Below the pieces are notes generated by a model. That model was given only the letters and a program-made list of their open reading frames with translations. It did not search any database and was not told the DNA's origin. Position numbers and translations under genes: made by a program. From the IMG/VR virus record IMGVR_UViG_3300009551_000042: 64,000 nucleotides of DNA. The stretch is one strand, 5' to 3'. This document shows, one piece after another, positions 11,054 through 35,359 of this stretch; the first letter of the stretch is position 1, and every line of letters begins with the position of its first letter. This stretch comes from a virus (Duplodnaviria; Heunggongvirae; Uroviricota; Caudoviricetes).

Positions 11054-11054
11054 C

Positions 11055-11128: not shown

Positions 11129-11129
11129 C

Positions 11130-11198
11130 GACCCGCAGCCCAGGGGGCTAGCAGCGCTGCAAACGCAGCTCGGGGCGGATCGATACCGCCGCGGGTCT
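11130..11198 (+). tRNA. tRNA-like, anticodon unresolved
   Basis: Acceptor gacccgc/gcgggtc and T ggcgg-atcgata-ccgcc are clean; the central region folds as a tetraloop hairpin (gctgc-aaac-gcagc) instead of a 7-nt anticodon loop. Confidence 0.35.
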
Positions 11199-11203
11199 CA
11201 AGC

Positions 11204-11271
11204 GCCCCCGCCGATGGACGGCACCGCGTCTTCTAAACGCACGTGAGCAGGCTCGATCCCTGCCGGGGGCA
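11204..11271 (+). tRNA. tRNA-Arg(TCT)
   Basis: Acceptor gcccccg/cgggggc, AC gcgt-cttctaa-acgc, T gcagg-ctcgatc-cctgc; truncated D-arm, 68 nt. Confidence 0.45.
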
Positions 11272-11275
11272 CTAT

Positions 11276-11347
11276 GCCGCGCTCGACTTCAGGTGAGGTC
11301 GTAGGTTTCTCAAACCTACCAGACGGGATCGTTACCCGTGCGCGGTG
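11276..11347 (+). tRNA. tRNA-Glu(CTC)
   Basis: Acceptor gccgcgc/gcgcggt, D gact/ggtc, AC taggt-ttctcaa-accta, T acggg-atcgtta-cccgt. Confidence 0.7.
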
Positions 11348-11385
11348 CCGATGAAACCAGGCACCACACCGATCGGTTAAATCAT

Positions 11386-11454
11386 ACCCCGGCCCGAGGA
11401 TGGGCCGTGACGCTACGAACGTTACTGGACAGGGTTCGAGTCCCTGACGGGGTA
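11386..11454 (+). tRNA. tRNA-Arg(ACG)
   Basis: AC tgacg-ctacgaa-cgtta, D ggcc/ggcc, T caggg-ttcgagt-ccctg; acceptor has a G7-A66 mismatch or a 1-nt offset. Confidence 0.5.
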
Positions 11455-11512
11455 CCTATGTCGGGCGAGTGAAACGGTTCACGTCAGCCTCATAAGCTGA
11501 AAACACCCAGGT

Positions 11513-12478: not shown

Positions 12479-12517
12479 CTATGCGCATGGATATCGTCCA
12501 TATTTATTACCGTCAAG

Positions 12518-12589
12518 CGTGCGCGGCTGAGGTAGCAGCGAAGGCTCATATCCTTTAGCTTTTGGGTTCGAATCCCAGGCGCACGACCA
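12518..12589 (+). tRNA. tRNA-Met/Ile(CAT)
   Basis: C1:G72 acceptor cgtgcgc/gcgcacg, AC gaagg-ctcatat-ccttt, T ttggg-ttcgaat-cccag, CCA encoded; no initiator G-C triplet. Confidence 0.55.
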
Positions 12590-12660
12590 CCAGGAGGCGC
12601 GAATGATGCCTATTCGCTGGCGAGGACTTTAGCGGACCCCGAACTATCGGAGGTTTCGCA

Positions 12661-12735
12661 TGTGCAAGTATTGCAAGCTTGCGATCCAGCTCGGCGGCAA
12701 GATGTGCCGCCCATGCTGGCGTCGGAAGCGTTGAA
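12661..12735 (+). CDS. 24-aa zinc-ribbon micro-ORF (MCKYCKLAIQLGGKMCRPCWRRKR)
   Basis: GGAGG RBS 8 nt upstream, CxxC-N9-CxxC; a second AGGAGG-ATG micro-ORF (MMPIRWRGL) lies at 12603-12632. Confidence 0.3.
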
Positions 12736-12812
12736 CTGACACTCGCAGAGGCGAACGCCTGCTGCGCAAAAATGGAGAGCCGCGCGCCAAGCGTCTGAAC
12801 AGCGGCAACTAT

Positions 12813-12884
12813 TCCAGGTTCGTCTAACGGGTAGGACGCAGGATTTTGGTTCCTGCTATCGGGGTTCGAATCCTCGCCCTGGAA
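12813..12884 (+). tRNA. tRNA-Gln(TTG)
   Basis: U1:A72 acceptor tccaggt/ccctgga (7:66 mismatch), D gtct/ggac, AC cagga-ttttggt-tcctg, T cgggg-ttcgaat-cctcg. Confidence 0.55.
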
Positions 12885-12888
12885 CAAC

Positions 12889-12963
12889 GGCACGCGAGTC
12901 CAGCTGGTGAAGGCGGCGCACTTACAATGCGTTCTCGCATGGGTTCGATTCCCTGGCGTGTCA
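12889..12963 (+). tRNA. tRNA-Val(TAC)
   Basis: Acceptor ggcacgc/gcgtgtc, AC gcgca-cttacaa-tgcgt, T-stem with 1-nt bulge around ggg-ttcgatt-ccc. Confidence 0.5.
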
Positions 12964-12969
12964 CCCCGA

Positions 12970-13041
12970 GCGCGTTCGGTTGGGTAGCCTAGCCGGCCTT
13001 ATGAGCGGTGAGAGCTGGTTCGACTCCAGCAGCGCGCACCA
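12970..13041 (+). tRNA. tRNA, anticodon unresolved (expanded 8-10-nt loop ccttatga)
   Basis: Acceptor gcgcgtt/agcgcgc, T gctgg-ttcgact-ccagc, CCA encoded; no clean 5-7-5 anticodon hairpin. Confidence 0.4.
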
Positions 13042-13042
13042 T

Positions 13043-13116
13043 GCACCTGAGTCCACCTGGTTGGTGGAAACGATCTGATACGTCGTACGCGGTGAGTTCG
13101 ATTCTCACGAGGTGCA
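13043..13116 (+). tRNA. tRNA-Ile(GAT)
   Basis: D tcca/tgga, AC acgat-ctgatac-gtcgt, T gtgag-ttcgatt-ctcac; acceptor gcacctg/gaggtgc with 7:66 mismatch. Confidence 0.6.
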
Positions 13117-13152
13117 CCCGTCTGCGGGAGGACGTTAAACAGTCCCGTCAAT

Positions 13153-13226
13153 CCTGACGTAGCCCAATTGGCCGAGGCAACCGTCTTAGAAACGGACAGA
13201 TGTGGGTTCGAGTCCCTCCGTCAGGA
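13153..13226 (+). tRNA. type I tRNA whose anticodon loop reads TAG (Leu CUA codon) but lacks a long variable arm
   Basis: C1:G72 acceptor cctgacg/cgtcagg, AC accgt-cttagaa-acgga, 5-nt variable loop, T gtggg-ttcgagt-ccctc. Confidence 0.45.
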
Positions 13227-13241
13227 CTAGTAGCGACTAAC

Positions 13242-13326
13242 GCAAGCGTGGTGGAACAGGCAGACGCAGCGGCTTCAAACCCCGCCGGGCTATCAGCCCA
13301 TGCGAGTTCGACTCTCGCCGCTTGCA
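13242..13326 (+). tRNA. type II tRNA (85 nt); anticodon loop cttcaaa (TCA) or alternative register CAA
   Basis: Acceptor gcaagcg/cgcttgc, T gcgag-ttcgact-ctcgc; anticodon stem imperfect (gg/cc then mismatch). Confidence 0.45.
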
Positions 13327-13332
13327 CAGACC

Positions 13333-13857
13333 ATGAGACGCCGAAGAGCAAACCAACCCGGTCGCAAAACGCTGGTTCTTAGCGCAAGCTACGTGCCCGT
13401 CCGCATTATCTCATGGCGCGACGCAATCAAGATGCGTTGCGAGGACACGGCCGATGTGGTGGCGGAGTACCGCGAGACGGTTAGCTCACCGTCGGTAACG
13501 TGGCGCATTCCGGCCGTGATCCGCGAGCGGCAATTTCACAAGGGCCGCGCTGGTGTCAGGTTTAGTCCGCTGAATGTCTTCAGGCGCGACGGCTACCGCT
13601 GTCAGTATTGCGGCGACAGATTCCCGCCCGACAAGCTCGAATGCGAACACGTTGTCCCGAAGAGCAAGGGCGGGAAGCGCAACTGGGAAAACATCGTTGC
13701 GGCATGCCGCACATGCAACGCCAGAAAGCGCGATAGGAGCTGCGAGGAGATCGGCATGTTCCCGTTGGCCAAACCAGTGCGGCCCAAGTCGCTTCCTGTC
13801 GACAGGCTCGAGGTGCCGCACGAGCGAGCGCCTGAAGAATGGCTCGCGTATTTGTGA
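13333..13857 (+). CDS. HNH endonuclease
   Basis: CQYCG...HVVPKSKGG...N...ACRTCNARK HNH motif; ATG chosen right after the tRNA 3' end (longer 13300 start would overlap the tRNA). Confidence 0.7.
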   Translation: MRRRRANQPGRKTLVLSASYVPVRIISWRDAIKMRCEDTADVVAEYRETVSSPSVTWRIPAVIRERQFHKGRAGVRFSPLNVFRRDGYRCQYCGDRFPPDKLECEHVVPKSKGGKRNWENIVAACRTCNARKRDRSCEEIGMFPLAKPVRPKSLPVDRLEVPHERAPEEWLAYL

Positions 13858-13862
13858 TTTCT

Positions 13863-13945
13863 GGAAAGTAAACCCTGAGTGGTCGGGGAGCCGGTTTGAA
13901 CCCGGTGGCACCGCAAGGTGAGGCGTTCGACTCGTCTGCTTTCCT
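13863..13945 (+). tRNA. tRNA-Ser(TGA), type II
   Basis: Acceptor ggaaagt/gctttcc, AC gccgg-tttgaac-ccggt, variable hairpin cacc-gcaa-ggtg, T aggcg-ttcgact-cgtct. Confidence 0.6.
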
Positions 13946-13951
13946 CAAACT

Positions 13952-17469: not shown

Positions 17470-18468
17470 TTATGCCCGGAGCTGGCTAGAGCTGATATCC
17501 CAGCGCCCCTCAAGGGGCTCCAGGTTGTAGATGACACCGGATTCCGGAACCGCCGCGATAGCCTCTTCGGCGCTGACCCAGCGCCCGTTGACCTCGCGTC
17601 CAACAATCTTCAAGGTCGTGTCATTGTCGGCGAGCTTGCGTAGGAGGTCCATCGGGTCAGGACCCCACTTCGGGTCGAGCATCCGAAGGAAGGCGTCTGC
17701 ACCGATGACGATTGCACGACGCGGAAACGCATTGGACTTATCCAGATAGAGCGGCATACCCGACGTGAACAGACGGTCTCTGCGGTGCAGCATCTTGGCT
17801 CGCTGCACCATCTCAGCCAGCGCTAGCGGTGGCTTGTGCGGCGTGGTCGCTTCGATCCAGTGAATCGCGTTGACCGATTCGGCGATAGCCAGGTGTCCCT
17901 GATGCGGCGGATTGAAGGCACCTGGGTATAGCGCGCGATGCGCTGGTGGTGTGGCGTGGCGTGTACCATCGGCTGCCCAGTAGGAGCGACCTAGAAAGAG
18001 ACTAAGCGCGTGTCCCGTGACCTCACCGGACAGAGGGCGCCCGCGATCGAGTAGCATCTTGATCACTGAGTCCGCATGCCGTCCCTGCCACTCGCGAGCC
18101 TTTGCGCCGTGCTCATTCTCGTAGCCGTAGTGGTACGCCCTGACGCCCTCCGCCGTCATCAGGGCAACATGGATGCGGTTCTCGCCCTTGCGCGGCTTAG
18201 CGCTCGCCACAGCGCCGCTGAGCCCTACCCCAACCGCGTCAGTCCCGGGCTGCCATGCGCGATAGTAGGCCATCATCGCCATCTCGATCGATGTATCCTC
18301 ACAGCACGCTCGCTCCGGCGCGAAGCCTAAAAAGTCCTCTAGCTGATCGTGACCGTACGGGAAGCAGGCCCCGGCGAAGTAGGCGGAGCAGCCGGGCACA
18401 CGCCAAATGTCGGCCTGTGCTCCGGCTCCTGCACCCGTTGCCGCAATGTAGATGCGGCGCTTACTCAC
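17470..18468 (-). CDS. nicotinamide-nucleotide adenylyltransferase (NMNAT, C-terminal HxGH nucleotidyltransferase domain) with N-terminal domain of unknown function
   Basis: GAFNPPHQGHL (H/T)xGH motif in C-terminal half; 4-nt overlap with the NAMPT gene. Confidence 0.65.
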   Translation of the reverse strand: MSKRRIYIAATGAGAGAQADIWRVPGCSAYFAGACFPYGHDQLEDFLGFAPERACCEDTSIEMAMMAYYRAWQPGTDAVGVGLSGAVASAKPRKGENRIHVALMTAEGVRAYHYGYENEHGAKAREWQGRHADSVIKMLLDRGRPLSGEVTGHALSLFLGRSYWAADGTRHATPPAHRALYPGAFNPPHQGHLAIAESVNAIHWIEATTPHKPPLALAEMVQRAKMLHRRDRLFTSGMPLYLDKSNAFPRRAIVIGADAFLRMLDPKWGPDPMDLLRKLADNDTTLKIVGREVNGRWVSAEEAIAAVPESGVIYNLEPLEGRWDISSSQLRA

Positions 18469-19862
18469 GCTGCCAAGCTCCTGTCCGCGTTGGCGCGAAC
18501 CTCGTCGAGGGTGAACGTGCGCTTGAGTTCGCCGTTTTCGAAGACGGTCTGCAACTCATCTCGCAGCTGGGTCGGTTGCTGAACTGTCGTATAAGCACCG
18601 GTCTGCGCGTTGCGCACGAGAGACAAGCGGCCCCATTTGCTTCGCTTCCCCGGGTCCGTGACAGGGTCCTTAGCGATCGGACGCGATACGCCGTTGACCG
18701 TTACCTCGCTCGGCTTGAACGCAAACTTCTGCGTGTCGCGGTCGACCTTCTGTAGCAACGCGCCGCCCATACCGAACGCGATGTTTGACGCACTGTAGCC
18801 ATTGGCCTTCATGACGAGGAGGATCTCAGTGATGGAGTCGTGATTGACGCCGTCGCCCTGGATCACGCGGAGCCACTTCGGGAGCAGCTTGTAGCCGCGC
18901 ATGTTCATCGGCGCGCCGACCTTGCGCTCCAGGATCTGAAGCGTCTTCAGCACGACGTCCGGCGGGTGACCCGAGTCCGGGCGAACCACGAGAGTGGCGC
19001 CGCTGCGCTCGATGTCCTCGCGAAGCTCACCGCCCCACACGTTCTCCAGCACGTTCCACAGGTCGTAACTGTCCGAGACGCACGCGAACAGAGAGCCAGG
19101 CTTGGCGAACTGTTTGACGACGTTGCGGTATGCATCGAGCTCGCCGTCTCGTCCCCAGCTGATGATCGTGCTGTGCTCGGTCGCCGGGATCGAGAACGCC
19201 GGCATGCCGTTAGCGGTGCCGTAGAAGCGGCGCGCTGCCAGAATGCCTTCCACTGTGTCTGAGCCCTGGAAGTTCACCAGGTGCGCCATGCCGCCAAGCT
19301 CGGCGGATTCCGCGCTCGACACTCCGCGGGCCCCGAAGTCGTGAAGCTTGAACGGCAGCTCGGCCAAGGGCGCGTCGCTGGTCTCGTTCAGGTATTCCAG
19401 GATCGTCCGCTTGATGTAGTGCGATTGCGTGGCAACCGTGGTCGGATACCAAATCGCGCGCAGCAGAACGGTCTCGAGGTACGAGGGGAGCCAGAAGAAC
19501 TCTGGATCCGTCGACTCGACGGACATCAGGATGTTGTGCGTCGGAACGACGGTGCCCTCGGCTACCGCCTTGATGCGCAGCGGCAGCGTCCCGCCGTGCT
19601 TATCAACGAGACGCAACCAAGCCGCACGGTCGAACGGCTCACCGTGCGCCGCGAAGAACTCTGCAGCCTCCCGAACGTCGTCGACAGTTAGAACGGCGCC
19701 GCTGAGGTACGCCTTTAGGAAGGCCTGGAGACCGAAGAAAACAGTCGATCCGTACTTGCCGCCGCGACTCTCCAGGTAGCTGTAAAGCCCCGTGGTCCCC
19801 GGCGGGAACAGACCGATGTGTGATGGCTTGTATGAATCAGTAGCTAGACACAGATTGCGCAT
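18465..19862 (-). CDS. nadV: nicotinamide phosphoribosyltransferase (NAMPT/NadV)
   Basis: 465 aa; characteristic type II phosphoribosyltransferase blocks (GYRGVSS-like, DSGHPPDVV). Confidence 0.8.
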   Translation of the reverse strand: MRNLCLATDSYKPSHIGLFPPGTTGLYSYLESRGGKYGSTVFFGLQAFLKAYLSGAVLTVDDVREAAEFFAAHGEPFDRAAWLRLVDKHGGTLPLRIKAVAEGTVVPTHNILMSVESTDPEFFWLPSYLETVLLRAIWYPTTVATQSHYIKRTILEYLNETSDAPLAELPFKLHDFGARGVSSAESAELGGMAHLVNFQGSDTVEGILAARRFYGTANGMPAFSIPATEHSTIISWGRDGELDAYRNVVKQFAKPGSLFACVSDSYDLWNVLENVWGGELREDIERSGATLVVRPDSGHPPDVVLKTLQILERKVGAPMNMRGYKLLPKWLRVIQGDGVNHDSITEILLVMKANGYSASNIAFGMGGALLQKVDRDTQKFAFKPSEVTVNGVSRPIAKDPVTDPGKRSKWGRLSLVRNAQTGAYTTVQQPTQLRDELQTVFENGELKRTFTLDEVRANADRSLAA

Positions 19863-25676: not shown

Positions 25677-25690
25677 TCAAAACCTCCGGG

Positions 25691-26079
25691 TGGACCGCCC
25701 GGGAATCGAACCCGGGTCCACGAGACGGAACAGAGGATCTCGCTCACGCGCGTAGTCCGTTTAGAGCCCGGACGGGCTTGACGCCGGGGGGACGGCGCCT
25801 CCACCACCAGTGCCTACTAGAACGTCGATGGAAGGTGCACTGGAACCATCGTCGACAGCTGCCCGTGTATTTGCGCCGTGAGAGCTACTCGGGCTCTCGC
25901 ACCCACGACGGCTTACGCTGCCAGGGGCAGGTAAGCATCACCCTCGTCGGCTTGCGCCTCGAAGGGGACCGCGTTGTCGTTCGCAGTTACGTTTGCTCGC
26001 CGGGATTAACGACTCTCGCGAGCATGAGTCGGCGCGATCAATCCTACATCCACATCCCATGTCGAAACCTGTGCGGCCC
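25691..26079 (-). ncRNA. ssrA: tmRNA (ssrA-like), tag reading frame ANDNAVPFEAQADEGDAYLPLAA-stop
   Basis: Minus strand: 5' GGGCCGCACAGGTTTCGACATGGG (cf. bacterial GGGG...GGAUUCGACGGG); 3' T-arm ccggg-ttcgatt-cccgg plus acceptor gcggtcc pairing with the 5' end including G3-U70; tag ORF at plus 25904-25975 ending LAA-TAA. Confidence 0.7.
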
Positions 26080-26350: not shown

Positions 26351-26950
26351 TCAGTCGTGGAGAGCGCCGGAAAACGCGGCCATGAAATCGACGTCCGTCA
26401 GAGCCTTGACGTCCACGATGTCATGTTTTGCGTTGAGGTTGTCGTCCAGCTCGGTGAGGAACGTGCGGAGCCCGCTGTTGATCTCGCCGACGGTGAGGAA
26501 CGAGATCGCGAACTCGTGCTCTTCGCGAAGCTCGGAAGCGATCGTGCGGATCGTGTTCTTGACAGCCTCCGGGTCGCTCGGGGCGCCGTCCGTGGCTACG
26601 AACAGAACCGTCTGATCGTAGTTGCCTGCACGGTGGAGTTTGTAGGCCTCGCGGATCACGCCGGCCGTGTCCGTCATGCCTTCCTTGGCGTCCAGACCGT
26701 TGATGATCGTTTCCGCCTTGTCGGCCGTGACGCCCTTGTACGGGGTGATCCGCTCACCGAACGAAAGAACGTCGATACCGTCCGAGTCCCATTTGCTTGC
26801 TTCCTTGGCGAAGGTGATGACGCCTTCCTTCAGGTATTCGATGCGGCTCTTGCCGCCGGGGCAATCCTTGGTTTGCATCGACGCGCTCACGTCGACCGCG
26901 AAAATGAAGTTGTCGCCCTTGTTCAGCTCGAGTTGATTTGATTGGTCCAT
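26351..26950 (-). CDS. von Willebrand factor A (vWA) domain protein
   Basis: MIDAS FAVDVSASM; AAGGAACAGGAAA RBS before ATG 26950 (the longer 26998 start is less likely). Confidence 0.7.
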   Translation of the reverse strand: MDQSNQLELNKGDNFIFAVDVSASMQTKDCPGGKSRIEYLKEGVITFAKEASKWDSDGIDVLSFGERITPYKGVTADKAETIINGLDAKEGMTDTAGVIREAYKLHRAGNYDQTVLFVATDGAPSDPEAVKNTIRTIASELREEHEFAISFLTVGEINSGLRTFLTELDDNLNAKHDIVDVKALTDVDFMAAFSGALHD

Positions 26951-27039
26951 GTTATTTCCTGTTCCTTTCGTTGCACACACGTACACCTCCGCTCCCATGC
27001 GGGGTGATTGACTTGGTAGATGTTGAGCGTGACTCGGCG

Positions 27040-27685: not shown

Positions 27686-28210
27686 TTAGGGCTTGCTTCG
27701 GATCTTGCGCGACGATCGTCGAGTGCTGCCCGCGCTTCGTACGCTCGGCGGCGATGTGTCACTTCCTGAAGTACGCTTACGCCCGAACGTTTCGAGCATG
27801 GTGGCAACTGCGATCAGATCCAGGGCTTCCAACTGTTCAGGTGGGAACGACAGCACCGACCGACCCACGCGCTCCCACACTTTTTCAGTGAAGCGATTTC
27901 CAGCGACACGGCGCGCAGAAAATAGAGCCACTTGATAATTGGGCAGCTCGGAACACATGCGCAGTGTGTGCGAAGGGGCATCGTCTTCGATGTTTAGGAT
28001 CTCGTTGATGCTGATCCCAAGCTCACGCGCGATCTTGCTAGCGCTCTCAACGGACCCACCCATGTCACCGTTAACGAAGCGGTGAAGCCACGACTGGCTT
28101 TGCTCAATCGCAACAGCCGCGCTGCTCAAGTTGCCACCGTGAATCTCGATGAGGCGCCTCGCAAACGTGCGAACACGCTCGTTCATTTCTGGGGTTAGAT
28201 GAGCGGCCAC
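27686..28210 (-). CDS. HTH (XRE-like) transcriptional regulator, CI-like repressor candidate
   Basis: HTH SKIARELGISINEILNI; divergent from a Cro-like gene across an AT-rich intergenic region. Confidence 0.6.
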   Translation of the reverse strand: MAAHLTPEMNERVRTFARRLIEIHGGNLSSAAVAIEQSQSWLHRFVNGDMGGSVESASKIARELGISINEILNIEDDAPSHTLRMCSELPNYQVALFSARRVAGNRFTEKVWERVGRSVLSFPPEQLEALDLIAVATMLETFGRKRTSGSDTSPPSVRSAGSTRRSSRKIRSKP

Positions 28211-28326
28211 TGGCTTTTACCGAGGTTATTATAGTCAGGCATAAATCGCCACCAATTTTTTGACACGGAAACGTCGAATTTCACACAGGTTTTGATGGCG
28301 TCTATGCTTGGTAGTAATAAATTGTC
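28211..28326. promoter_or_regulatory. AT-rich divergent promoter/operator region (genetic-switch-like)
   Basis: Contains TTGACA (28256) and the operator-like half-sites gttattatagtcag and cttggtagtaataaat in inverted orientation. Confidence 0.45.
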
Positions 28327-28437
28327 TTGCACGTATGCAAAGCCGAGAGCACATTGCGAGGTGTGAGACGGCAGCTGAGGGAGCGGCGCTCCAGAACGCT
28401 AGCGGATCCACGGGGCACTGCAACTGATTTTGCATCA

Positions 28438-28671
28438 GTGCAAAAGGCTCCCGCCAGCGAGAATGATAGTGCTGCTGATTGGATCGGACAAGAGCTTGAA
28501 AAGTCCGGACTTTCGGTCGCCCAGCTAGCCGAAAAAGCAGGGATAGACCCGTCAACCGCATGGCGGTGGGCGAAGGGAATTGGAAACTTCAGCCAGGTGA
28601 AGGCTGTTCTTTTTCTGATGTCTTTCAACTCTGACAAGGCTGACTTAAGTCCCCCAGTCGCTGCTGAATAG
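28438..28671 (+). CDS. Cro/CI-type HTH protein
   Basis: HTH SGLSVAQLAEKAGIDPSTAWRWAKG; GTG 28438 start proposed (ATG 28327 alternative). Confidence 0.5.
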   Translation: MQKAPASENDSAADWIGQELEKSGLSVAQLAEKAGIDPSTAWRWAKGIGNFSQVKAVLFLMSFNSDKADLSPPVAAE

Positions 28672-28877
28672 ACCCCGGAACTAGCAAGTCCGCAGCCGCA
28701 AACGCAAGCGTTTTCAGCACGACCAATCCTATCGTGTGTGAAATTCGTGTACCTAATCCGCCACGGATCGGCCTTTAGGCATAACTTCGACAAGCAACCC
28801 CCGCGGGCTCAGAACCGCAGAAAACGACGCATTCTAGCGGCGAATGACCAGCCGCCCCTAAGACCGTAGGCCAGTTC

Positions 28878-30509
28878 ATGAAATACCTACAGCACTTCAA
28901 TCCGGCTCGCACGCCGCAGACCGAGCAAGCGTCCGCTAAGCAGGTCCCGAACTCGGCCGGCGGGTTTTCCTTTGCCGTCGACAACTGGAAGCGCCTGGAA
29001 AGGTTCGTGATCTTGGGGTCTGAGGGCGGCAGTTACTACGCGAGTGAGAAGACGCTGACCCGCGAAAGCGCCGCAGCTGTCCTGGCGTGCTGTGCGGAGG
29101 ATGGTCCGCGCGCCGTCAGTTCTGTCGTGGAAATCTCGGACAGCGGCCGGGCACCAAAGAACGATGCCGCTATATTTGCCCTAGCGCTTGCCGCCACGCA
29201 CGATAACCCGAGCGCTCGTGAGGCGGCGCTCTCCGCGCTACCGCGCGTGTGTCGAACCGGGACGCACCTGTTCCAGTTTGTTTCACAGGTCGATCAGATG
29301 CGCGGCTGGGGCAGAGCCCTACGGCGCGGCGTATCGAACTGGTACACGAGCAAGACGCAAGCTGACCTTGCGTTTCAGGTTTGCAAGTACCAGAACCGCG
29401 AGGGTTGGTCGCACGCTGACGTTCTAGCCCGCTGCCACGCGCGAAGCCTCGACCTGAATCCGGTGTTACGTTGGATCGTCGCTGGCATCAACGGGGGCGG
29501 TGAGCGCGCACATTACAGCCGGGAGATGCAGCTGTTTCGTGAGTATCCGGACCCGGGTCCCCTCCCCGAGTTCCTGATCGACTTCGAGGAGCTGAAGCAT
29601 GCTGACGAGAAGCGAACCATTCAGCTGATTCAAAAACACGGCTACACGCACGAAATGATCGCGACCGAGCATAAGAACTCGGCGGCGGTTTGGGAGTCAT
29701 TACTCCCGCGCATGGGCATGACCGCGCTCATTCGTAACCTGGGCAAACTGACCGAGGTCGGTTTACTCAAGCCGCTGAGTGCAGCCGCGCGAACAGTCTC
29801 CGAGCGATTGCAGGATCGAGAGGCCTTGCGCAAGGGGCGAGTCCATCCGATTCAAATGCTCTCGGCCCTCAGTGTCTACGCACAAGGCCACGGCGAGCGC
29901 GGGTCTCTGACCTGGGTTCCCGTTAGCACTGTGACCGATGCACTGAATGAGGGTTTCTATCAGTCGTTCGGAGTCATCCAGCCGAGCGGCAAGCGCCACA
30001 TGCTGGCGCTCGATGTTTCTGGAAGCATGACCTGCGGGCGCATCGCTGGAGTGCCGGGGCTCACGCCGCGCACTGCGTCTGCGTGCATGGCGATGGTGAC
30101 CGCCCGCGTTGAAAAGGAATGGGAGGTATACGGCTTCTCAGATCGCTTCATCAAGCTGGACATCAGCCCGACTCGTCGCCTGGACGAAATTTGCCACTAC
30201 ATGAACCGGTTGCCGTTCAGCTCGACGAATTGCTCGCTACCGATTCAGTTCGCGAGCCAGCAAAAGATGGAGGTCGATCTGTTCTCCGTCTACACCGACT
30301 CAGAGACCTACGCGGGCAATGAGCACCCGCACCAGTCACTGCGCCGATACCGGCAAAACATGGGTATTCCGGCTCGCATGGCCGTGATCGGGATGGTTTC
30401 CAACGGATTCACGATCGCTGATCCTGATGACGCCGGCATGCTGGACGTCGTCGGCTTTGACACAGCGACGCCCGCGCTACTTTCAGCGTTCGCGCGCGGC
30501 GACCTCTAG
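28878..30509 (+). CDS. rsr: Ro60-related protein (Rsr; TROVE domain plus C-terminal vWA)
   Basis: 543 aa; TROVE-like N-terminal region; C-terminal MIDAS LALDVSGSM. Confidence 0.8.
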   Translation: MKYLQHFNPARTPQTEQASAKQVPNSAGGFSFAVDNWKRLERFVILGSEGGSYYASEKTLTRESAAAVLACCAEDGPRAVSSVVEISDSGRAPKNDAAIFALALAATHDNPSAREAALSALPRVCRTGTHLFQFVSQVDQMRGWGRALRRGVSNWYTSKTQADLAFQVCKYQNREGWSHADVLARCHARSLDLNPVLRWIVAGINGGGERAHYSREMQLFREYPDPGPLPEFLIDFEELKHADEKRTIQLIQKHGYTHEMIATEHKNSAAVWESLLPRMGMTALIRNLGKLTEVGLLKPLSAAARTVSERLQDREALRKGRVHPIQMLSALSVYAQGHGERGSLTWVPVSTVTDALNEGFYQSFGVIQPSGKRHMLALDVSGSMTCGRIAGVPGLTPRTASACMAMVTARVEKEWEVYGFSDRFIKLDISPTRRLDEICHYMNRLPFSSTNCSLPIQFASQQKMEVDLFSVYTDSETYAGNEHPHQSLRRYRQNMGIPARMAVIGMVSNGFTIADPDDAGMLDVVGFDTATPALLSAFARGDL

Positions 30510-30627
30510 TAGCCAAACGAGGCCACAACTAAAACAAGACTACGGCACGAGCCGGAAGCTGGTGGGTTATCAATTGTAAACTGATGCCAACCCCACCGGC
30601 GCCACCTTTGTTCGTGCCAACTTTTAC

Positions 30628-30763
30628 GCAGGTGATCGTCTAGCGGTAGGACGCGAAAATCTCCCTTGACGCCCTCTTTGTCCAATCCTCGGTTGGGCCG
30701 ATAGTTGAGGGTTACCATCTTCAGGAGATCGAAACGCTGGTTCGAATCCAGCTCACCTGCCCA
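30628..30763 (+). ncRNA. Y RNA-like ncRNA (tRNA-mimic module plus long imperfect helix) downstream of rsr
   Basis: 8-bp acceptor-like stem gcaggtga/tcacctgc with CCA after it, D-arm gtc-tagcggtag-gac, T-arm gctgg-ttcgaat-ccagc; the anticodon arm is replaced by an ~80-nt bulged helix (atctcc/ggagat, gccctc/gagggt). Confidence 0.55.
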
Positions 30764-31103
30764 GAGCCCAGGGCCGCACGACGGAGGGTTAACCCGTTAA
30801 GTTTTCCCCCTCCGTCACCACCTTTGCCCGGGCTCGCCTACTTATGACTGAGAGAGTCTTCGTTCCGAGCTGGGTTCTCATAGGCCTGCTCTGTGCCATC
30901 GCGTGCGCCGCTGGCGTCGCTGCTGGTTGCCATTGATCGGGCGACTGGTCAGCTCCGGCCTAGCGGTCGGGTTCCTTGTCGGATTTTGCCTCGGGAGTTT
31001 CGTCGGCCTTCTATGCACCCGTTAACCGCACCGCTTGTTTTTTCCATCTTGGCGCGGATGCCCGTCTGTTGGGCTGACCGTCACGATCATAGAAAACCGT
31101 GGC

Positions 31104-31135
31104 AGTTATTGACTGTGGCGCATGCTATTACTGAG
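31104..31135. promoter_or_regulatory. operator-like motif copies gttattgactg / gctattactgagg
   Basis: Same GTTATTACTG family as the 27272 palindrome; lies in a ~350-nt apparently non-coding stretch after the Y RNA. Confidence 0.35.
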
Positions 31136-31166
31136 GTCGCCAACAGCTCACGGCAGCCAGTGGACA

Positions 31167-31495
31167 AGGCCGGAAAGCTCATCACGACGTTTTACCACGA
31201 GGGCCGCGGATGCCTCGACGTGCATAGCGGCGCGCATCGTGGTCCGGGGCGCGGGCCGTTTCAGCTCGAAGGCCAGAGCAAGCGCTACTCTGGGCCGTTC
31301 GTTGGGCTCGACTACGAATCCACCCTGAACGCCGCCCGTGTGGCTGGCGACGTTTTCGATCACTCGTATCAATGCGGCTCGACGCCCGCTGATGTTTTCA
31401 CGGCCTACGCCGGCCGCCCCTGCGGCAAGCCATGGCCGACCTTAGACGACAGAACGCGCACCTACCGCTGGGTTACGTGGAGGCTTAGTCAATGA
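31167..31495 (+). CDS. hypothetical protein (start uncertain)
   Basis: The ORF-track N-terminus looks like non-coding read-through; in-frame GTG at 31116 or 31167. Confidence 0.4.
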
Positions 31496-31755
31496 AATTC
31501 GAGGTGGAGATCGATAACGAGAAGGTCTTCGACACCAAGACCGGCTTGGATACGATCCATTGGAAGGTGACGCTCAAGCGGAACGGCGAGTTCATCTGTG
31601 AAACGACGGATGAGGATCTAGGCAAGGCCTTTGCTGACGCGCACCAGATGGCTACCCACGAAGTCGCCGAAGATCTGGCCGCGCGTGTAGGCGCGTTCTT
31701 TGAAGAGTTCGACACTATGCGCCGCCGCTTGGCGACTTTGGAGAAGAAGAAATGA
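31492..31755 (+). CDS. hypothetical protein
   Basis: GGAGG RBS, ATGA coupling. Confidence 0.55.
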   Translation: MKFEVEIDNEKVFDTKTGLDTIHWKVTLKRNGEFICETTDEDLGKAFADAHQMATHEVAEDLAARVGAFFEEFDTMRRRLATLEKKK

Positions 31756-32237
31756 TCGGGCACTCTCAAGGCATGGCCGCACTCATGCGCGACGTTGCTG
31801 CGTTCCACGCCGCACACGGAAGCGCGGACCCGACCAACCTGATAGAAAAGCCATGCGTAGAGGTCGTGCGTCTACGTGCGAAGCTGATCACGGAAGAGTA
31901 CTGCGAAACGATCGTTGCGATGTTCGCCGGCAACACGCCGGAGGTGAAGGCACTCCTGAAAGAGATGCTGCAACCCATCCTCGACGTGATCGACCAGTGC
32001 CCGGCAGACCACTTCGACCTTGAGGCAACCGCCGACGGACTAGCTGATCTGATTTACGTATCGGTCGGCACAGCTCTGGCTCTCGGGATGACCAGGTTTC
32101 CAAGTGTATGGTCCGAAGTGCAGCGGTCCAACATGGACAAGCTCGGCGGCGGTAGGCGTGAGGACGGGAAGATCCTCAAGCCAGAAGGCTGGAAGCCTCC
32201 ACACATCCACCATGCGCTTTACGACGTAGCCGTCTAA
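31752..32237 (+). CDS. all-alpha NTP pyrophosphohydrolase (MazG-like) candidate
   Basis: Acidic helices EEYCET...DLEATADGLADLIYV; ATGA coupling. Confidence 0.4.
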   Translation: MIGHSQGMAALMRDVAAFHAAHGSADPTNLIEKPCVEVVRLRAKLITEEYCETIVAMFAGNTPEVKALLKEMLQPILDVIDQCPADHFDLEATADGLADLIYVSVGTALALGMTRFPSVWSEVQRSNMDKLGGGRREDGKILKPEGWKPPHIHHALYDVAV

Positions 32238-33703: not shown

Positions 33704-35359
33704 TTGGCCATGCGTTGCGCTTTCTATGGCCGGAAATCAACCGAAGAACAGATCGCCTCTCTGGACGTCCAGATGGAAGAGGCGACGAGGTATGCCCAAT
33801 CTAAGGGTTGGACGCTTGCTCCCGGACACATCTACCAAGACAGCGCGATCAGCCGCGCAGAGTTCAAGAAGCGCCCAGGTCTTATCGCGCTGCTCAACGC
33901 TCTAAGCTCCGGTGAGTTCGACGCGGTGATCATGCGCGACGACTCGCGCTTGGGCGGCGACATGCACCGCACCGGCCTGGTCGTTCAGGACATCATCGAG
34001 AACGGTAAGCGGCTCTTCTGCTACTTCGAGGAGAACGAAATCACCCTAGAGTCCGCCACGGACAAGTTCATGATGGCCGTGCGAGGTTTCGCGGCTGAGC
34101 TAGAGCGAGAGAAGATTGCAGGTCGTACCCGTGAGCACCTTGAGACTAAGGCCCGCAAGGGCTACGTAACTGGAGGCAAGTGTTACGGATACGACAACGA
34201 GCGTTTAGCCGACCATGTTGAGCACCGCATCAACGAAACCCAAGCCGCTATCGTTCGCGAGGTGTTCCAGGCGAAGGCAGATGGCGACGGCTACAAGAAG
34301 ATCGCAAAGCGTCTAAACGCGCGCGGCGTCCCCTCGCCTAGCGCCGGGAAGCGCGGCACTGGGTCATGGGCCCCGACTATGATCCTCAGCATGCTTCGAA
34401 ACGAGCGCTATATCGGCGCCGTTCTCTGGGGCAAGGCTACGAAGACTTACCGCGGAGGAACGAAAGTCAGGCTTCAATCAGCGGAGGAGGATCGAATCCG
34501 TAGTGAGCGCCCAGAGCTGCGCATTGTCCCGCAAGAGCTGTGGGATCAGGTTCAAGCCGGAATGCGGCAAAACAAGTCGAGCGGACGCAGGCGCGGGCCA
34601 GAGCCTCGCTACCTGCTATCCGGGATTGCCCGATGCTCTGAGTGCGACGGCCCCATGCGGGCACATGCGGCAAAGTTCGGTTCTGAAAAAACCCACCTGT
34701 ACCTTTGCGCTCGTCACCATGATCGCGGTGACGCCGTCTGCAAGAGCGATCTGCGTCGGCCGGTGGCCCTCGTGGACGCAGCCGTGATCGATTGGGTCAT
34801 GGCAAATGTCTTGAATGAAGAGGTCATCACGGCCGTGTTGGCTGAGGTCAGGGGCCGCGTAGCAAAGCGAAGCGAGGCGCCCAACGCCGAGCGCGACGAG
34901 CTGGAAACAGAGTCGAAGCGCCTACGCGCGGAGATCGATCGGCTGGTCGGTGCTTTGGCTAGCGGCGTTGAATCCGCGACGATCGCCACCGTCATCGGTC
35001 AGCGCGAAAAGCGACTGATGGAGGTCAAGGCTCGCCTTGAGGTCATTGCTATCGCGCCTTCGGTCCTGGACCTGGAGGTGCGACGGCTGGAAAAGGAAGC
35101 CCGTGCGCGCCTGAAAGAGTTCAAGAAGATTCTGAGCGGCAACGTGGCCGTTCTTGAGTCACGAAAAGTGCTCGAAGCGCTGTTTGATGGCCCAATGCGC
35201 TTCACCGAGACATCGACCCCCGGTGGCCGCCGCTTTCGCGTTGAATTTGCGGTGGCCACCGGGAATCTGATGTCCCCTACTGCGGGCGTCCCCAAGGGGA
35301 TTCGAACAGTAGGGGACATGATGGAATTCCCTGAAAAACGAGGGGTGCTCACAGCCTAG
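33704..35359 (+). CDS. large serine recombinase / serine integrase
   Basis: N-terminal resolvase catalytic domain (AFYGRKSTEEQ), recombinase domain, zinc ribbon CSECDGPM...C..C, coiled-coil C-terminus. Confidence 0.8.
   Translation: MAMRCAFYGRKSTEEQIASLDVQMEEATRYAQSKGWTLAPGHIYQDSAISRAEFKKRPGLIALLNALSSGEFDAVIMRDDSRLGGDMHRTGLVVQDIIENGKRLFCYFEENEITLESATDKFMMAVRGFAAELEREKIAGRTREHLETKARKGYVTGGKCYGYDNERLADHVEHRINETQAAIVREVFQAKADGDGYKKIAKRLNARGVPSPSAGKRGTGSWAPTMILSMLRNERYIGAVLWGKATKTYRGGTKVRLQSAEEDRIRSERPELRIVPQELWDQVQAGMRQNKSSGRRRGPEPRYLLSGIARCSECDGPMRAHAAKFGSEKTHLYLCARHHDRGDAVCKSDLRRPVALVDAAVIDWVMANVLNEEVITAVLAEVRGRVAKRSEAPNAERDELETESKRLRAEIDRLVGALASGVESATIATVIGQREKRLMEVKARLEVIAIAPSVLDLEVRRLEKEARARLKEFKKILSGNVAVLESRKVLEALFDGPMRFTETSTPGGRRFRVEFAVATGNLMSPTAGVPKGIRTVGDMMEFPEKRGVLTA

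What the first reader, a model, noticed from the sequence alone, without database searches (positions are those of the whole stretch)
28878..30763. Ro60 (Rsr) gene followed by a Y-RNA-like tRNA-mimic
A 543-aa TROVE+vWA protein is followed 118 nt downstream by a ~136-nt element. The element has an acceptor-like stem with encoded CCA, a D-arm (gtc-tagcggtag-gac) and a perfect T-arm. In place of the anticodon arm there is an ~80-nt bulged helix. This is the architecture described for bacterial Y RNAs that tether Ro60 to exoribonucleases. Here it sits in a phage with a CI/Cro switch 200 nt upstream. The 200-nt rsr leader (28672-28877) is also non-coding and could hold a second small RNA.
Basis: partly seen in the sequence, partly recalled or inferred. 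Interest (0 to 1): 0.75.

Follow-up and report, generated by a model that had tools for sequence, protein, structure and literature searches.

The report
Ro60 gene with three Y RNAs
A phage Ro60 gene is followed by three Ro60-binding Y RNAs, and the middle one is a complete tRNA-shaped RNA with normal tRNA ends and a Ro60-binding helix set into its anticodon stem; this differs from the circularly permuted tRNA mimic (YrlA) described so far and occurs next to Ro60 genes in many bacterial phyla.

Summary
ORF 28878-30509 is a full-length Ro60 (TROVE + Ro60-vWA). The 136-nt element at 30628-30763 has an acceptor stem, D-arm, T-arm and encoded CCA.

1. The 118-nt "gap" holds a plain Y-RNA hairpin (Y1, 30543-30619), and a second hairpin (Y3, 30764-30835) follows the element.
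2. The element is not built like published YrlA, which runs Ro strand - T - closed acceptor loop - D - Ro strand. Here the order is the native tRNA order. The 5'/3' ends lie in an 8-bp acceptor stem (G-1:C73, CCA). A capped, two-stranded Ro60-binding helix (GGGCCGA / UUGUCC, bulged C) sits in the anticodon stem.
3. This Y1 - tRNA-Y - Y3 array is conserved after rsr in four related phage contigs (Ro60 62-70% identical). A covariance model finds 41 further copies, in loci from at least seven bacterial phyla and in five viral contigs, with strong covariation. Wherever the Ro60 gene lies inside the fetched DNA, it is on the same strand.
4. The rsr leader shows no sign of an RNA, and the CI/Cro call rests on weak HTH hits.

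Verdict: a new variant of a known kind. Expression and Ro60 binding are inferred, not shown.

The parts
28878..30509 (+). rsr: a 543-aa Ro60 orthologue (TROVE ring plus Ro60-type vWA domain)
   Evidence: Pfam TROVE 9e-41 and vWA_Ro60 1e-61. Full-length matches to solved Ro60/Rsr structures 2NVO, 1YVP and 9NEN. At least 7577 homologues at E <= 1e-50 among the 8000 candidates scored.
30543..30619 (+). Y1: a plain Y-RNA hairpin. The 5' strand is GAGCCGGAAGCUGGUGGGUUAUC and the 3' strand is CCCACCGGCGCCACCUUUGUUCGUGCC.
   Evidence: Rfam RF01656 (nematode stem-bulge RNA, a Y RNA homologue) scores 37.5 bits against a gathering score of 38, E = 2e-5. The hairpin is present at the same place in L008, L009, L010 and L013. 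In the alignment of Y1 and Y3 hairpins, 8 of 15 pairs keep pairing through changes on both sides.
30628..30763 (+). Y2: a tRNA-shaped Y RNA in native tRNA order, 136 nt
   Evidence: Covariance model R1 scores it 133.8 bits. R1 finds 46 copies (5 seeds, 41 others) at E < 1e-8. On those 46, 94.5% of cells are paired against 73.9% in shuffles, and 20 of 27 pairs have changes on both sides. ARAGORN -i calls it a tRNA.
30628..30635 (+). Acceptor stem, 5' strand: G-1 plus positions 1-7. It pairs with 30753-30760 (positions 66-72 plus C73).
   Evidence: All 8 pairs covary across the 46 copies, with 96.7% of cells paired. The -1:73 position is G:C in 23 of 46 and a standard pair in 36 of 46. ARAGORN starts the tRNA at 30629, leaving G30628 as position -1.
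30638..30652 (+). D-arm: stem GUCU/GGAC, loop AGCGGUA. U8 is at 30636; A14, G18 G19 and A21 are in place.
   Evidence: Read from the sequence. Three of the 4 stem pairs covary, with 98.9% of cells paired.
30654..30655 (+). C27 and G28, the outer two pairs of the anticodon stem. They pair with C42 and G43 at 30730-30731.
   Evidence: Among 27 copies with the mini-hairpin, 21 complete a 5-bp anticodon-like stem with these nucleotides. The pair types vary: CG/CG, CC/GG, CU/AG, UG/CA.
30663..30716 (+). The Y module set into the anticodon stem. Upper helix: CCCUUGAC (30663-30670) with GUUGAGGG (30704-30711). Lower, Ro60-binding helix: UUGUCC (30678-30683) with GGGCCGA (30695-30701), C30699 bulged. 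Cap: AAUC-CUC-GGUU (30684-30694). YUAYC motif: UUACC (30712-30716).
   Evidence: The lower-helix pairs are nearly invariant in sequence across 46 copies: U-A, U.G, G-C, C/U-G, C-G, C-G. The first cap pair covaries, and cap stems differ between relatives, several ending in GNRA loops. For the upper helix, the longest helix with the copy's own partner averages 6.57 bp, against 4.85 +/- 0.18 bp when partners are swapped between copies. The match to the metazoan Ro-binding helix GGUCCGA/UUGACC rests on established knowledge (Stein et al. 2005, as cited in PMC4201824).
30717..30729 (+). Mini-hairpin AUC-UUCAGGA-GAU: a vestigial anticodon stem-loop (Y32, U33, 'CAG', R37, A38). It corresponds to the 'V' stem-loop of YrlA.
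   Evidence: A 3-5 bp stem with a 7-nt loop follows YUAYC directly in 27 of 44 copies. Loop position 2 is U in 19 and position 6 is a purine in 22. R1 aligns this hairpin to the anticodon arms of ordinary tRNAs. L010 has CGC/GCG in place of AUC/GAU.
30736..30752 (+). T-arm: GCUGG-UUCGAAU-CCAGC
   Evidence: All cells are paired and 4 of 5 pairs covary.
30761..30763 (+). Encoded CCA, directly after C73
   Evidence: Read from the sequence. The three bases after the acceptor stem are CCA in 12 of 46 copies and CC-N in 22 of 46.
30764..30835 (+). Y3: a second plain Y-RNA hairpin (GAGCCCAGGGCCGCACGACGGAGGGUUAAC ... CCCUCCGUCACCACCUUUGCCCGGGCUC). It starts directly after the CCA.
   Evidence: It is conserved in position in L008, L009, L010 and L013. 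Covariation is shown in alignment A3. The Y 5'-strand motif occurs exactly three times in the 64-kb window, at 30549, 30695 and 30771.

Best explanation
The locus is a phage Ro60 ribonucleoprotein cassette: rsr followed by three Y RNAs.

What is shown:
- Each RNA carries the conserved bulged helix that Ro60 recognises (5' GGGCCGA-like strand, 3' CUUGYCC-like strand, one bulged C). All three are therefore read as Ro60 ligands.
- Y1 and Y3 are simple stem-loops, like metazoan Y RNAs and nematode sbRNAs.
- Y2 is a complete tRNA scaffold. It has an 8-bp acceptor stem with G-1:C73 and encoded CCA, a D-arm, a T-arm, and the tertiary-pair nucleotides U8, A14, G18G19, G15:C48 and U54-A58.
- A capped two-stranded Ro60-binding helix is set into the 5' strand of its anticodon stem, between positions 28 and 29. 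A 3-bp remnant of the anticodon hairpin is left.
- This is the same set of parts as YrlA, in the un-permuted (native tRNA) order.

What is inferred:
- The three RNAs are made on the rsr transcript. In relatives, Y1 starts only 7-34 nt after the stop codon, and no terminator-like site was found between rsr and Y3.
- RNase P cuts 5' of Y2, and tRNA 3'-end processing acts at or after the CCA. These two cuts separate Y1, Y2 and Y3.
- Ro60 binds each helix. The tRNA-shaped body of Y2, with a free CCA end, recruits a tRNA-binding partner or protects the RNA. This would tether Ro60 to an effector, as Y RNA tethers Rsr to PNPase in Deinococcus.
For: Identity of the protein:
- Ro60 identity is established.

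The three Y modules:
- There are three and only three in the window.
- Y1 scores 37.5 bits on the Y-RNA-homologue family RF01656.

Conservation in related phages:
- The array Y1 - tRNA-Y - Y3 follows rsr in four related phage contigs, whose Ro60 is 62-70% identical. The downstream genes are also shared: a 158-aa ORF, a MazG-like gene and a serine recombinase.
- Cap stems differ between relatives: CCAAUC/GGUUGG in the window, CCGC-GUAA-GCGG in L009, CCGG-GUAA-CCGG in L013 and CCCA-GCGA-UGGG in L010.

Spread and covariation:
- Model R1 finds 41 further full-length copies at 47-98 bits. Ordinary tRNAs score 23-40 bits.
- Covariation is strong: 94.5% of cells paired, 244 cells with changes on both sides against 66 in shuffles, and 36-50% paired when the partners are slid.
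- Of the 22 non-seed loci with a strong copy, 17 hold a Ro60 gene within the fetched DNA, always on the same strand as the copies. In the other five (L022, L028, L043, L051, L119) none lies inside the fetched DNA. The chance pattern hits lack both Ro60 and the RNA, except L099 and L123.

Native order:
- In the window there is one D-arm and one T-arm, and D is upstream of T.
- In tandem arrays, the acceptor strands of one unit pair 7/7 in 22 of 24 units. Strands of neighbouring units pair only 4-6/7.

tRNA likeness:
- ARAGORN -i calls the element a tRNA, and in-silico excision gives tRNA-Leu(CAG).
- The Rfam tRNA model hits several family members at 40-52 bits.

Processing precedent:
- M. smegmatis YrlA is cut by RNase P and receives CCA (PMC4201824 section 8).
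Against: - There are no expression, processing or binding data. Transcript ends, RNase P cleavage and Ro60 binding are all inferred.
- The single-sequence fold is not better than shuffles (z = -1.8).
- The minimum-free-energy structure uses two window-specific pairings, UCUCC/GGAGA and GCCCUC/GAGGGU. These compete with the family consensus.
- The Ro helix is capped by a loop instead of ending in free 5'/3' ends. No test shows that Ro60 accepts this.
- The covariance-model alignment is fitted to the model, so pair counts lean towards the proposed structure.
- The effector of the tRNA-like body is unknown even for the studied YrlA.
Confidence: 0.75

Rival explanations
1. It is an ordinary YrlA: the same architecture as the published bacterial and phage tRNA-mimic Y RNAs.
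For: - It has the same parts: a Ro 5'-strand motif, YUAY, a small hairpin, a T-arm, a D-arm and an acceptor helix.
- It lies within 4 kb of rsr on the same strand, which is the criterion used in PMC4201824.
- More distant relatives carry canonical YrlA next to Ro60: L002 and L001 and the phages Cashline, Farewell and Bxz1.
Against: - The order of parts differs: D is upstream of T, the acceptor stem is open with CCA, and the Ro helix is capped.
- Rfam YrlA RF02553 gives no match at E <= 10, yet it finds L001 at 43.5 bits.
- There is no D-arm downstream of the T-arm.
Confidence: 0.04
2. It is a working tRNA gene that carries an insertion. The Y module is either an intervening sequence that is removed, or a tolerated appendage on a tRNA that still decodes (for example, a Leu-CAG-like anticodon loop).
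For: - Removing about 60 nt gives a sequence that ARAGORN calls tRNA-Leu(CAG).
- The remnant hairpin keeps the anticodon-loop signature Y32-U33-NNN-R37 in many copies.
- Family members sit on different tRNA scaffolds, including class II scaffolds with long variable arms.
- They often lie within tRNA arrays.
Against: - The insert lies in the stem, between positions 28 and 29, not at the canonical intron site.
- The Rfam scan at E <= 10, which includes the group I intron models, reported no intron family in this stretch. Bacteria are not known to have the tRNA splicing endonuclease (established knowledge; also stated in 10.1101/312249).
- The insert carries an almost invariant Ro60-binding sequence and co-occurs with rsr.
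- A 'Leu' anticodon with a 4-nt variable loop and a G-1:C73 acceptor end fits no bacterial identity set.
- The window already encodes 21 tRNAs.
Confidence: 0.1
3. The 30543-30835 stretch is not cut into separate small RNAs. It acts as a structured 3' UTR of the rsr mRNA with three Ro60 sites, for feedback control or mRNA stabilisation.
For: - Y1 begins only 7-34 nt after the rsr stop codon in all five phage loci, which leaves no room for a promoter.
- No terminator-like or promoter-like site was found between rsr and Y3.
Against: - Y2 has every RNase P determinant: an acceptor stem, a T-arm and CCA. M. smegmatis YrlA and YrlB are processed from one precursor (PMC4201824 section 8).
- In many bacterial loci the same elements lie upstream of rsr (L015, L017, L084, L145, L147), where they cannot be a 3' UTR.
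Confidence: 0.1
4. It is a decayed tRNA pseudogene, and its resemblance to Y RNA is chance.
For: The fold energy is not significant on its own.
Against: - Forty-six homologous copies with compensatory changes.
- A Ro-binding motif that is nearly invariant in sequence.
- Linkage to rsr on the same strand.
- Conserved flanking Y hairpins.
Confidence: 0.01

Closest known systems
YrlA (Y RNA-like A; Rfam RF02553), described in Chen et al. 2014 (PMC4201824) and Wang et al. 2018 (bioRxiv 10.1101/312249)
   Same: - It is encoded next to rsr on the same strand, in bacteria and in phages.
- It has a Ro-binding 5'-strand motif followed by YUAY.
- It has a small hairpin before the T-arm.
- Its D- and T-arms carry the tRNA tertiary-pair nucleotides.
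- The Ro helix takes the place of the anticodon arm.
   Different: - YrlA is circularly permuted: the order is T - closed acceptor stem-loop - D, the RNA ends lie in the Ro helix, and there is no free CCA.
- Here the order is native: acceptor 5' strand - D - Ro helix (capped) - remnant anticodon hairpin - T - acceptor 3' strand - CCA.
- Here both strands of the Ro helix are recognisable, as in metazoan and Deinococcus Y RNAs. In Salmonella and M. smegmatis YrlA only the 5' strand is recognisable (PMC4201824 section 10).
Metazoan Y RNAs and nematode stem-bulge RNAs (Rfam RF00019, RF01656); D. radiodurans Yrn1 and Yrn2
   Same: - Y1 and Y3 are single stem-loops whose lower stem is the conserved bulged helix, followed by GGGUUAUC-like sequence.
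- Y1 scores 37.5 bits on RF01656.
- Several Y RNAs are clustered at one locus.
   Different: - They are bacterial/phage RNAs, presumably cut from the rsr transcript, not separate pol III genes ending in U runs.
- In Yrn1 the Ro helix sits in the acceptor position (PMC4201824 section 10). In Y2 it sits in the anticodon position.
[quoted passage not shown]
   Same: A tRNA-like Y RNA with an opened 7-bp acceptor stem and a CCA 3' end, bound by Rsr.
   Different: In M. smegmatis that state is reached by cutting a permuted precursor into two base-paired halves. Here a single continuous chain has that topology as encoded.
b7a-tRNA, predicted by Burroughs & Aravind 2016 (known to me only through the description in 10.1101/312249; the paper itself was not available)
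   Same: A tRNA-like gene in native order that is sometimes found next to Rsr or in RNA-repair operons.
   Different: It is described as strongly resembling an authentic tRNA, and no Ro-binding helix is mentioned. I could not compare sequences.
Circularly permuted tRNA genes of algae and archaea, and the 'dimeric tRNA' model for the origin of YrlA (Sim & Wolin 2018, as cited in 10.1101/312249)
   Same: The family found here, including directly abutting tandem copies (for example L075 5039-5167 and 5169-5295), is the kind of precursor from which a permuted YrlA could arise by a shift of register.
   Different: Those are models or true tRNA precursors. None carries a Ro60-binding helix in native order.

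Membership tests
Ro60 / Rsr protein | An N-terminal TROVE (HEAT-repeat ring) domain | tested here: met
   Pfam PF05731, E = 9e-41.
Ro60 / Rsr protein | A C-terminal Ro60-type vWA domain, and full-length similarity to solved Ro60 structures | tested here: met
   PF25045, E = 1e-61, covering positions 1-165 of 165. Matches to 2NVO (1e-124) and 1YVP (2e-120) over residues 12-532.
Y RNA (general sense) | A conserved bulged helix: a GGUCCGA-like 5' strand pairs with a UUGACC-like 3' strand, leaving one C bulged | tested here: met
   Y2 has GGGCCGA (30695-30701) paired with UUGUCC (30678-30683), with C30699 bulged. The sequence is nearly invariant across 46 copies. Y1 and Y3 carry the same motif.
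Y RNA (general sense) | Encoded next to a Ro60 gene | tested here: met
   The RNAs lie 34-326 nt downstream of rsr in the window. Of the 22 non-seed loci with strong copies, 17 hold rsr within the fetched DNA, always on the same strand as the copies.
Y RNA (general sense) | Bound by Ro60 in vivo | not testable with these tools
   Needs immunoprecipitation or a gel-shift assay.
Y RNA (Rfam RF00019 / RF01656) | Reaches the family's gathering score | tested here: inconclusive
   Y1 scores 37.5 bits against a gathering score of 38 on RF01656 (E = 2e-5). RF00019 gives only an 18-bit hit that joins parts of Y2 and Y3.
YrlA (RF02553) | Ro 5'-strand motif (GNCGAAN0-1G), YUAY, and conserved T- and D-arms | tested here: met
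   GCCGAUAG, UUAC, a T-arm and a D-arm are all present. The motif varies slightly, with U in place of the second A.
YrlA (RF02553) | Permuted order: T-arm 5' of D-arm, an acceptor stem closed by a loop, RNA ends in the Ro helix | tested here: not met
   D (30638-30652) precedes T (30736-30752). The acceptor stem is open and ends in CCA. The Ro helix is capped. RF02553 gives no match at E <= 10, whereas the canonical relative L001 scores 43.5 bits.
tRNA | Acceptor stem, D-arm and T-arm with the invariant nucleotides, and a 3' CCA | tested here: met
   All helices covary.
tRNA | A continuous 5-bp anticodon stem with a 7-nt loop, and a score above the Rfam tRNA gathering score | tested here: not met
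   The stem is interrupted by a 61-nt insert (30656-30716). RF00005 gives only a partial 17.6-bit hit against a gathering score of 29. Default ARAGORN does not call it.
tRNA gene with a group I intron | A self-splicing intron of at least 200 nt in the anticodon loop that matches intron models | tested here: not met
   The insert is 61 nt and lies in the stem. No intron family matched at E <= 10.

The most novel reading that the evidence does not exclude
The rsr-linked elements form a broad class that, as far as the held literature shows, has not been described: 'Ro-handle tRNAs'.
- They are complete tRNA scaffolds of several types, class I and class II.
- They have native acceptor ends and often an encoded CCA.
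- A capped Ro60-binding helix is grafted into the anticodon stem.
- They would be the un-permuted sisters or ancestors of YrlA, which gives direct sequence support to the dimeric-tRNA model of YrlA origin.
- Unlike YrlA, they would present a free CCA end while bound to Ro60, one that might be aminoacylated. The window clade has G-1:C73, which is the bacterial HisRS identity element.
Probability: 0.4. Interest if true: 0.75.

Novelty: new variant of a known kind. Interest (0 to 1): 0.6.

Why it matters
- Y RNAs are the regulators that decide what Ro60 does, and the partner of their tRNA-like domain is still unknown.
- A version with ordinary tRNA ends and a CCA tail changes which enzymes could act on it: RNase P, the CCA-adding enzyme, aminoacyl-tRNA synthetases and EF-Tu. 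This gives concrete experiments.
- The family may cover bacterial groups such as cyanobacteria and myxobacteria, where earlier searches found few YrlA genes (PMC4201824, Methods).
- Together with the abutting tandem copies, it provides living examples of the intermediate that the 'dimeric tRNA' model of Y RNA origin requires.
- For phage biology, it shows a tRNA- and tmRNA-rich temperate phage carrying a complete three-RNA Ro60 module.

Tried and rejected
- **Rfam at gathering thresholds.** Nothing was found at 30500-30850.
- **Megablast against cultured phages.** No match.
- **Alternative long-range pairing.** The Y2 5' strand (30691-30716) could pair with 30808-30837; this was suggested by an 18-bit Rfam Y_RNA hit. 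I rejected it because Y3 is a self-contained hairpin that is conserved and covaries in relatives.
- **Minimum-free-energy pairings UCUCC/GGAGA and GCCCUC/GAGGGU**. They are not conserved. Homology supports CCCUUGAC/GUUGAGGG plus the mini-hairpin.
- **The small hairpin as a tRNA variable arm**, which is the reading in the YrlA literature. I reinterpret it as the inner part of the anticodon arm. Nucleotides 27-28 and 42-43 complete a 5-bp stem, and the 7-nt loop keeps U33 and R37.
- **A second RNA in the rsr leader, 28672-28877.** There is no fold signal, no Y motif and no conservation.
- **The degenerate pattern scan of genome contigs.** Most of the 120 hits were chance, as expected from the pattern's information content. 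Only hits confirmed by the covariance model were used.
- **Literature.** Burroughs & Aravind 2016 and the 2020 Annual Review were not available. Prior description therefore cannot be excluded.
Full report
**1. The observation**

ORF 28878-30509 (+) encodes 543 aa. It matches Pfam TROVE (9e-41) and vWA_Ro60 (1e-61, full domain). It aligns end to end with solved Ro60 proteins: D. radiodurans Rsr 2NVO, X. laevis 1YVP and human 9NEN. The gene is a Ro60 orthologue.

The stop codon ends at 30509 and the element begins at 30628, which leaves 118 nt between them. The element, 30628-30763, reads as follows:
- acceptor 5' strand GCAGGUGA;
- U8 and C9;
- D-arm GUCU-AGCGGUA-GGAC;
- about 79 nt of helix;
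- T-arm GCUGG-UUCGAAU-CCAGC;
- acceptor 3' strand UCACCUGC;
- CCA.

Its fold energy is not exceptional (-48.9 kcal/mol, z = -1.8). The fold alone therefore proves nothing.

ARAGORN does not call the element by default. With its intron option it calls 30629-30763 a tRNA. If about 60 nt are removed in silico, it calls a 75-nt tRNA-Leu(CAG) that starts at 30629, which leaves G30628 as position -1.

**2.

A permissive Rfam scan of 28300-31300 gave one strong hit. It lay in the "gap", not on the element. Positions 30543-30618 score 37.5 bits (gathering score 38, E = 2e-5) on RF01656, the nematode stem-bulge RNAs, which are Y RNA homologues. This is Y1.

Directly after the CCA lies a paralogous hairpin, Y3 (30764-30835). 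The Y 5'-strand signature, G[AG]G[CT]CG followed 9-13 nt later by GGTTAHC, occurs exactly three times in the 64-kb window. The three sites are 30549, 30695 and 30771.

The rsr leader 28672-28877 shows nothing. Its fold z-score is +0.77, it has no Y motif, and it gives only spurious Rfam hits. Relatives have just 0-45 nt upstream of rsr.

**3. Relatives**

No cultured phage matches the DNA. Cultured phage Ro60 proteins are at most 46.5% identical.

The large protein collection holds Ro60 relatives at 60-70% identity. I fetched the contigs of four of them: L008, L009, L010 (with L011 and L012) and L013 (with L014). All show the same layout: rsr, then Y1, then a tRNA-shaped element, then Y3. The genes that follow are also shared: a 158-aa ORF, a MazG-like gene and a serine recombinase.

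The capped stem differs between them while the core is unchanged:

| Locus | Cap stem and loop |
|---|---|
| window | CCAAUC / GGUUGG |
| L009 | CCGC-GUAA-GCGG |
| L013 | CCGG-GUAA-CCGG |
| L010 | CCCA-GCGA-UGGG |

The unchanged core is 5' GGGCCGA paired with 3' CUUG(U/C)CC, with one C bulged. It has the same form as the metazoan Ro60-binding helix GGUC[C]GA / UUGACC (established knowledge, summarised in PMC4201824 section 6).

Y1 and Y3 also covary. In their joint alignment, 8 of 15 pairs keep pairing through changes on both sides.

**4. Topology compared with known YrlA**

Published YrlA has this order: 5' Ro strand - YUAY - V hairpin - T-arm - acceptor stem closed by a loop - D-arm - 3' Ro strand. 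The authors describe it as resembling a circularly permuted tRNA that lacks a free CCA end (PMC4201824 sections 5, 6, 10; bioRxiv 10.1101/312249, abstract and discussion).

I saw exactly that arrangement in more distant relatives:
- L002 and L001;
- the phages Cashline, Farewell and Bxz1, which have, for example, a closed acceptor hairpin CACCC-UUCG-GGGUG between T and D.

Rfam's YrlA model RF02553 hits L001 at 43.5 bits (E = 1e-7). It gives no match in the window even at E <= 10.

The window element contains the same parts in a different order: acceptor 5' strand - D - Ro 3' strand - cap - Ro 5' strand - YUAYC - small hairpin - T - acceptor 3' strand - CCA. It is YrlA turned back into the native tRNA order. 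The window has only one D-arm and one T-arm, so the order is not ambiguous.

**5. A family, not a one-off**

I built covariance model R1 from the five phage sequences (27 pairs). I ran it on loci fetched by a degenerate pattern: 14 viral and 120 genome stretches, most of them expected to be chance hits.

R1 found 41 further full-length copies of 124-153 nt at 47-98 bits. Ordinary tRNAs in the same loci score 23-40 bits.

The bacterial copies come from genomes or MAGs labelled as follows:

| Group | Loci |
|---|---|
| Deinococcus lacus and D. marmoris | L101, L147 |
| Longimicrobium and Gemmatimonadaceae | L058, L074, L076, L106, L071 |
| Chloroflexota | L030, L084, L127, L131 |
| Polyangiaceae and Myxococcales | L075, L119, L132 |
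| Tautonia (Planctomycetota) | L145 |
| a Prochloraceae cyanobacterium | L043 |
| Armatimonadota | L051 |

Five viral contigs also carry copies: L015, L017, L022, L025 and L028.

A tblastn search with the window Ro60 finds a Ro60 gene in 17 of these 22 loci. In every one it lies on the same strand as the RNA copies, either upstream or downstream of them. In the other five (L022, L028, L043, L051, L119) no Ro60 gene lies inside the fetched DNA; in L043, L051 and L119 the copies sit within about 500 nt of the end of the fetched stretch. Apart from L099 and L123, the chance pattern hits have no Ro60 gene.

Many loci hold two to five copies, often inside tRNA arrays.

On the 46-sequence alignment A2:
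- 94.5% of cells are paired, against 73.9% in shuffles and 36-50% when the partners are slid;
- 20 of 27 pairs change on both sides;
- all 8 acceptor pairs covary;
- the lower Ro helix is almost invariant in sequence, as expected for a protein-binding site.

For the upper helix, the longest helix with a copy's own partner averages 6.57 bp. With partners swapped between copies it averages 4.85 +/- 0.18 bp.

In tandem arrays, the acceptor strands of one unit pair 7/7 in 22 of 24 units. Strands of neighbouring units pair only 4-6/7. The native order therefore holds there too.

**6. Refined anatomy**

The nucleotides just after the D-arm (27 and 28) pair with the two nucleotides after the small hairpin (42 and 43). 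The pairs vary between copies:
- C-G and G-C in the window, L008 and L009;
- CC/GG in L013 and L071;
- CU/AG in several Longimicrobium and Polyangiaceae copies.

Twenty-one of the 27 copies with the hairpin complete a 5-bp stem in this way.

The hairpin loop has 7 nt. Position 2 is usually U and position 6 is usually a purine. R1 aligns the hairpin to the anticodon arms of real tRNAs.

The Y module is therefore an insertion into the 5' strand of the anticodon stem. What the YrlA literature calls the V stem-loop looks like the remnant of the anticodon hairpin. This is my inference.

In eight or so copies, a full 5-bp stem closes the whole module instead. Some copies sit on class II scaffolds with long variable arms: L043:7362-7501, L101:1453-1604 and L147:6641-6793.

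In the window clade the acceptor stem is 8 bp with G-1:C73, followed by CC(A/G). Across the family:
- position -1:73 is G:C in 23 of 46 copies;
- it forms a standard pair in 36 of 46;
- CCA is encoded in 12 of 46.

**7. How it most likely works**

Shown: the parts, their conservation, and their linkage to rsr.

Inferred:
- **Co-transcription with rsr.** Y1 starts 7-34 nt after the stop codon. No terminator-like or promoter-like site lies between rsr and Y3.
- **Processing.** RNase P would cut at the 5' end of Y2, and tRNA 3'-end processing would act at the CCA. Because Y3 starts at the next base, these two cuts separate all three RNAs. The precedent is M. smegmatis YrlA, which RNase P cuts and which receives CCA, with YrlA and YrlB coming from one precursor (PMC4201824 section 8).
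- **Function.** Ro60 would bind each bulged helix. The tRNA-shaped body of Y2 would recruit a tRNA-binding partner or shield the RNA from exonucleases. These are the two roles discussed for YrlA (PMC4201824 section 10). The effector is unknown.

**8. Rivals**

- **Ordinary YrlA.** Rejected on topology and on the RF02553 result.
- **A decoding or spliced tRNA.** Unlikely. The insert is in the stem, no intron family matched it, it carries a conserved Ro site, and the identity elements conflict with one another.
- **An unprocessed 3' UTR with three Ro sites.** Possible for this phage. It does not fit the many loci where the RNAs lie upstream of rsr.
- **Chance.** Excluded by the covariation and by the linkage to rsr.

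**9. Novelty**

Ro60 with tRNA-mimic Y RNAs in phages is already known; PMC4201824 reports 22 phages. What appears new is:
- the native-order form with a capped helix;
- its spread across phyla;
- the conserved Y - tRNA-Y - Y array.

I found no description of these in the searchable literature. Rfam 15 holds no family that captures it.

Three relevant papers were not available: Burroughs & Aravind 2016 (which describes 'b7a-tRNA'), Sim & Wolin 2018, and Sim et al. 2020. Prior mention therefore cannot be ruled out.

The family fits the 'dimeric tRNA' model of YrlA origin quoted in 10.1101/312249. Abutting native-order copies, such as L075 5039-5167 and 5169-5295, would yield a permuted YrlA if the register shifted.

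**10. Verdict**

The finding is a new variant of a known kind. I set interest at 0.6. All functional steps still need experiments.

Noticed in passing
window 8527-13946: An array of 21 tRNA genes on the + strand, called by ARAGORN. Only 11 of them reach the Rfam tRNA gathering score.
   Followed up: no
window 25688-26079 (-): A phage-encoded tmRNA (Rfam 88.8 bits) with the predicted tag ANDNAVPFEAQADEGDAYLPLAA. It lies 2.8 kb upstream of rsr.
   Followed up: no
window 26351-26998 (-), 18465-19862 (-), 31752-32237 (+), 33704-35359 (+): A stand-alone vWA protein lies between the tmRNA and rsr. The window also encodes a nicotinamide phosphoribosyltransferase, a MazG-like pyrophosphohydrolase and a large serine integrase. 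The rsr - RNAs - MazG - integrase order is kept in L008 and L013.
   Followed up: partly
window 27686-28210 (-) and 28327-28671 (+): A divergent ORF pair with only weak HTH/repressor hits (E about 1e-3 to 7e-3). A 176-aa / 74-aa divergent pair sits at the matching place in L009 but gave no PHROG hit.
   Followed up: partly
L001 4644-5264: A 206-aa ORF with an HNH-like motif (GNVQWVHRDVNKMK) overlaps the stop codon of the Ro60 gene. It ends with a duplicate of the last ~20 Ro60 residues (LLDVCGFDTATPALISDFVAR). This looks like a homing-endonuclease insertion at the 3' end of rsr.
   Followed up: partly
L021 8170-8760 (-), L152 1540-1720: A third arrangement. Capped Y hairpins flank a permuted T - closed acceptor loop - D unit, in a 165-kb viral contig and in Streptomyces phage TunaTartare. 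This suggests a continuum between the native and permuted forms.
   Followed up: no
L043:7362-7501, L101:1453-1604, L147:6641-6793, L084:3340-3478: Y modules set into class II-like tRNA scaffolds, with long variable arms and Leu/Ser-type D-arms. The Ro handle therefore occurs on several tRNA types within one locus.
   Followed up: no
L075 2100-7800, L025 1500-7100: The rsr gene sits inside large tRNA arrays of more than 15-30 tRNA genes, together with two to five tRNA-shaped Y RNAs. One locus is from a Polyangiaceae MAG and the other from a viral contig.
   Followed up: no
L119 7378-7937 (-): The best non-seed match to the window element (97.8 bits) lies in a Polyangiaceae MAG contig. That contig has the same length (48,980 nt) as the longest contig listed for Ro60 relative P0083 (54% identity). 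This hints, speculatively, at a myxobacterial host.
   Followed up: no
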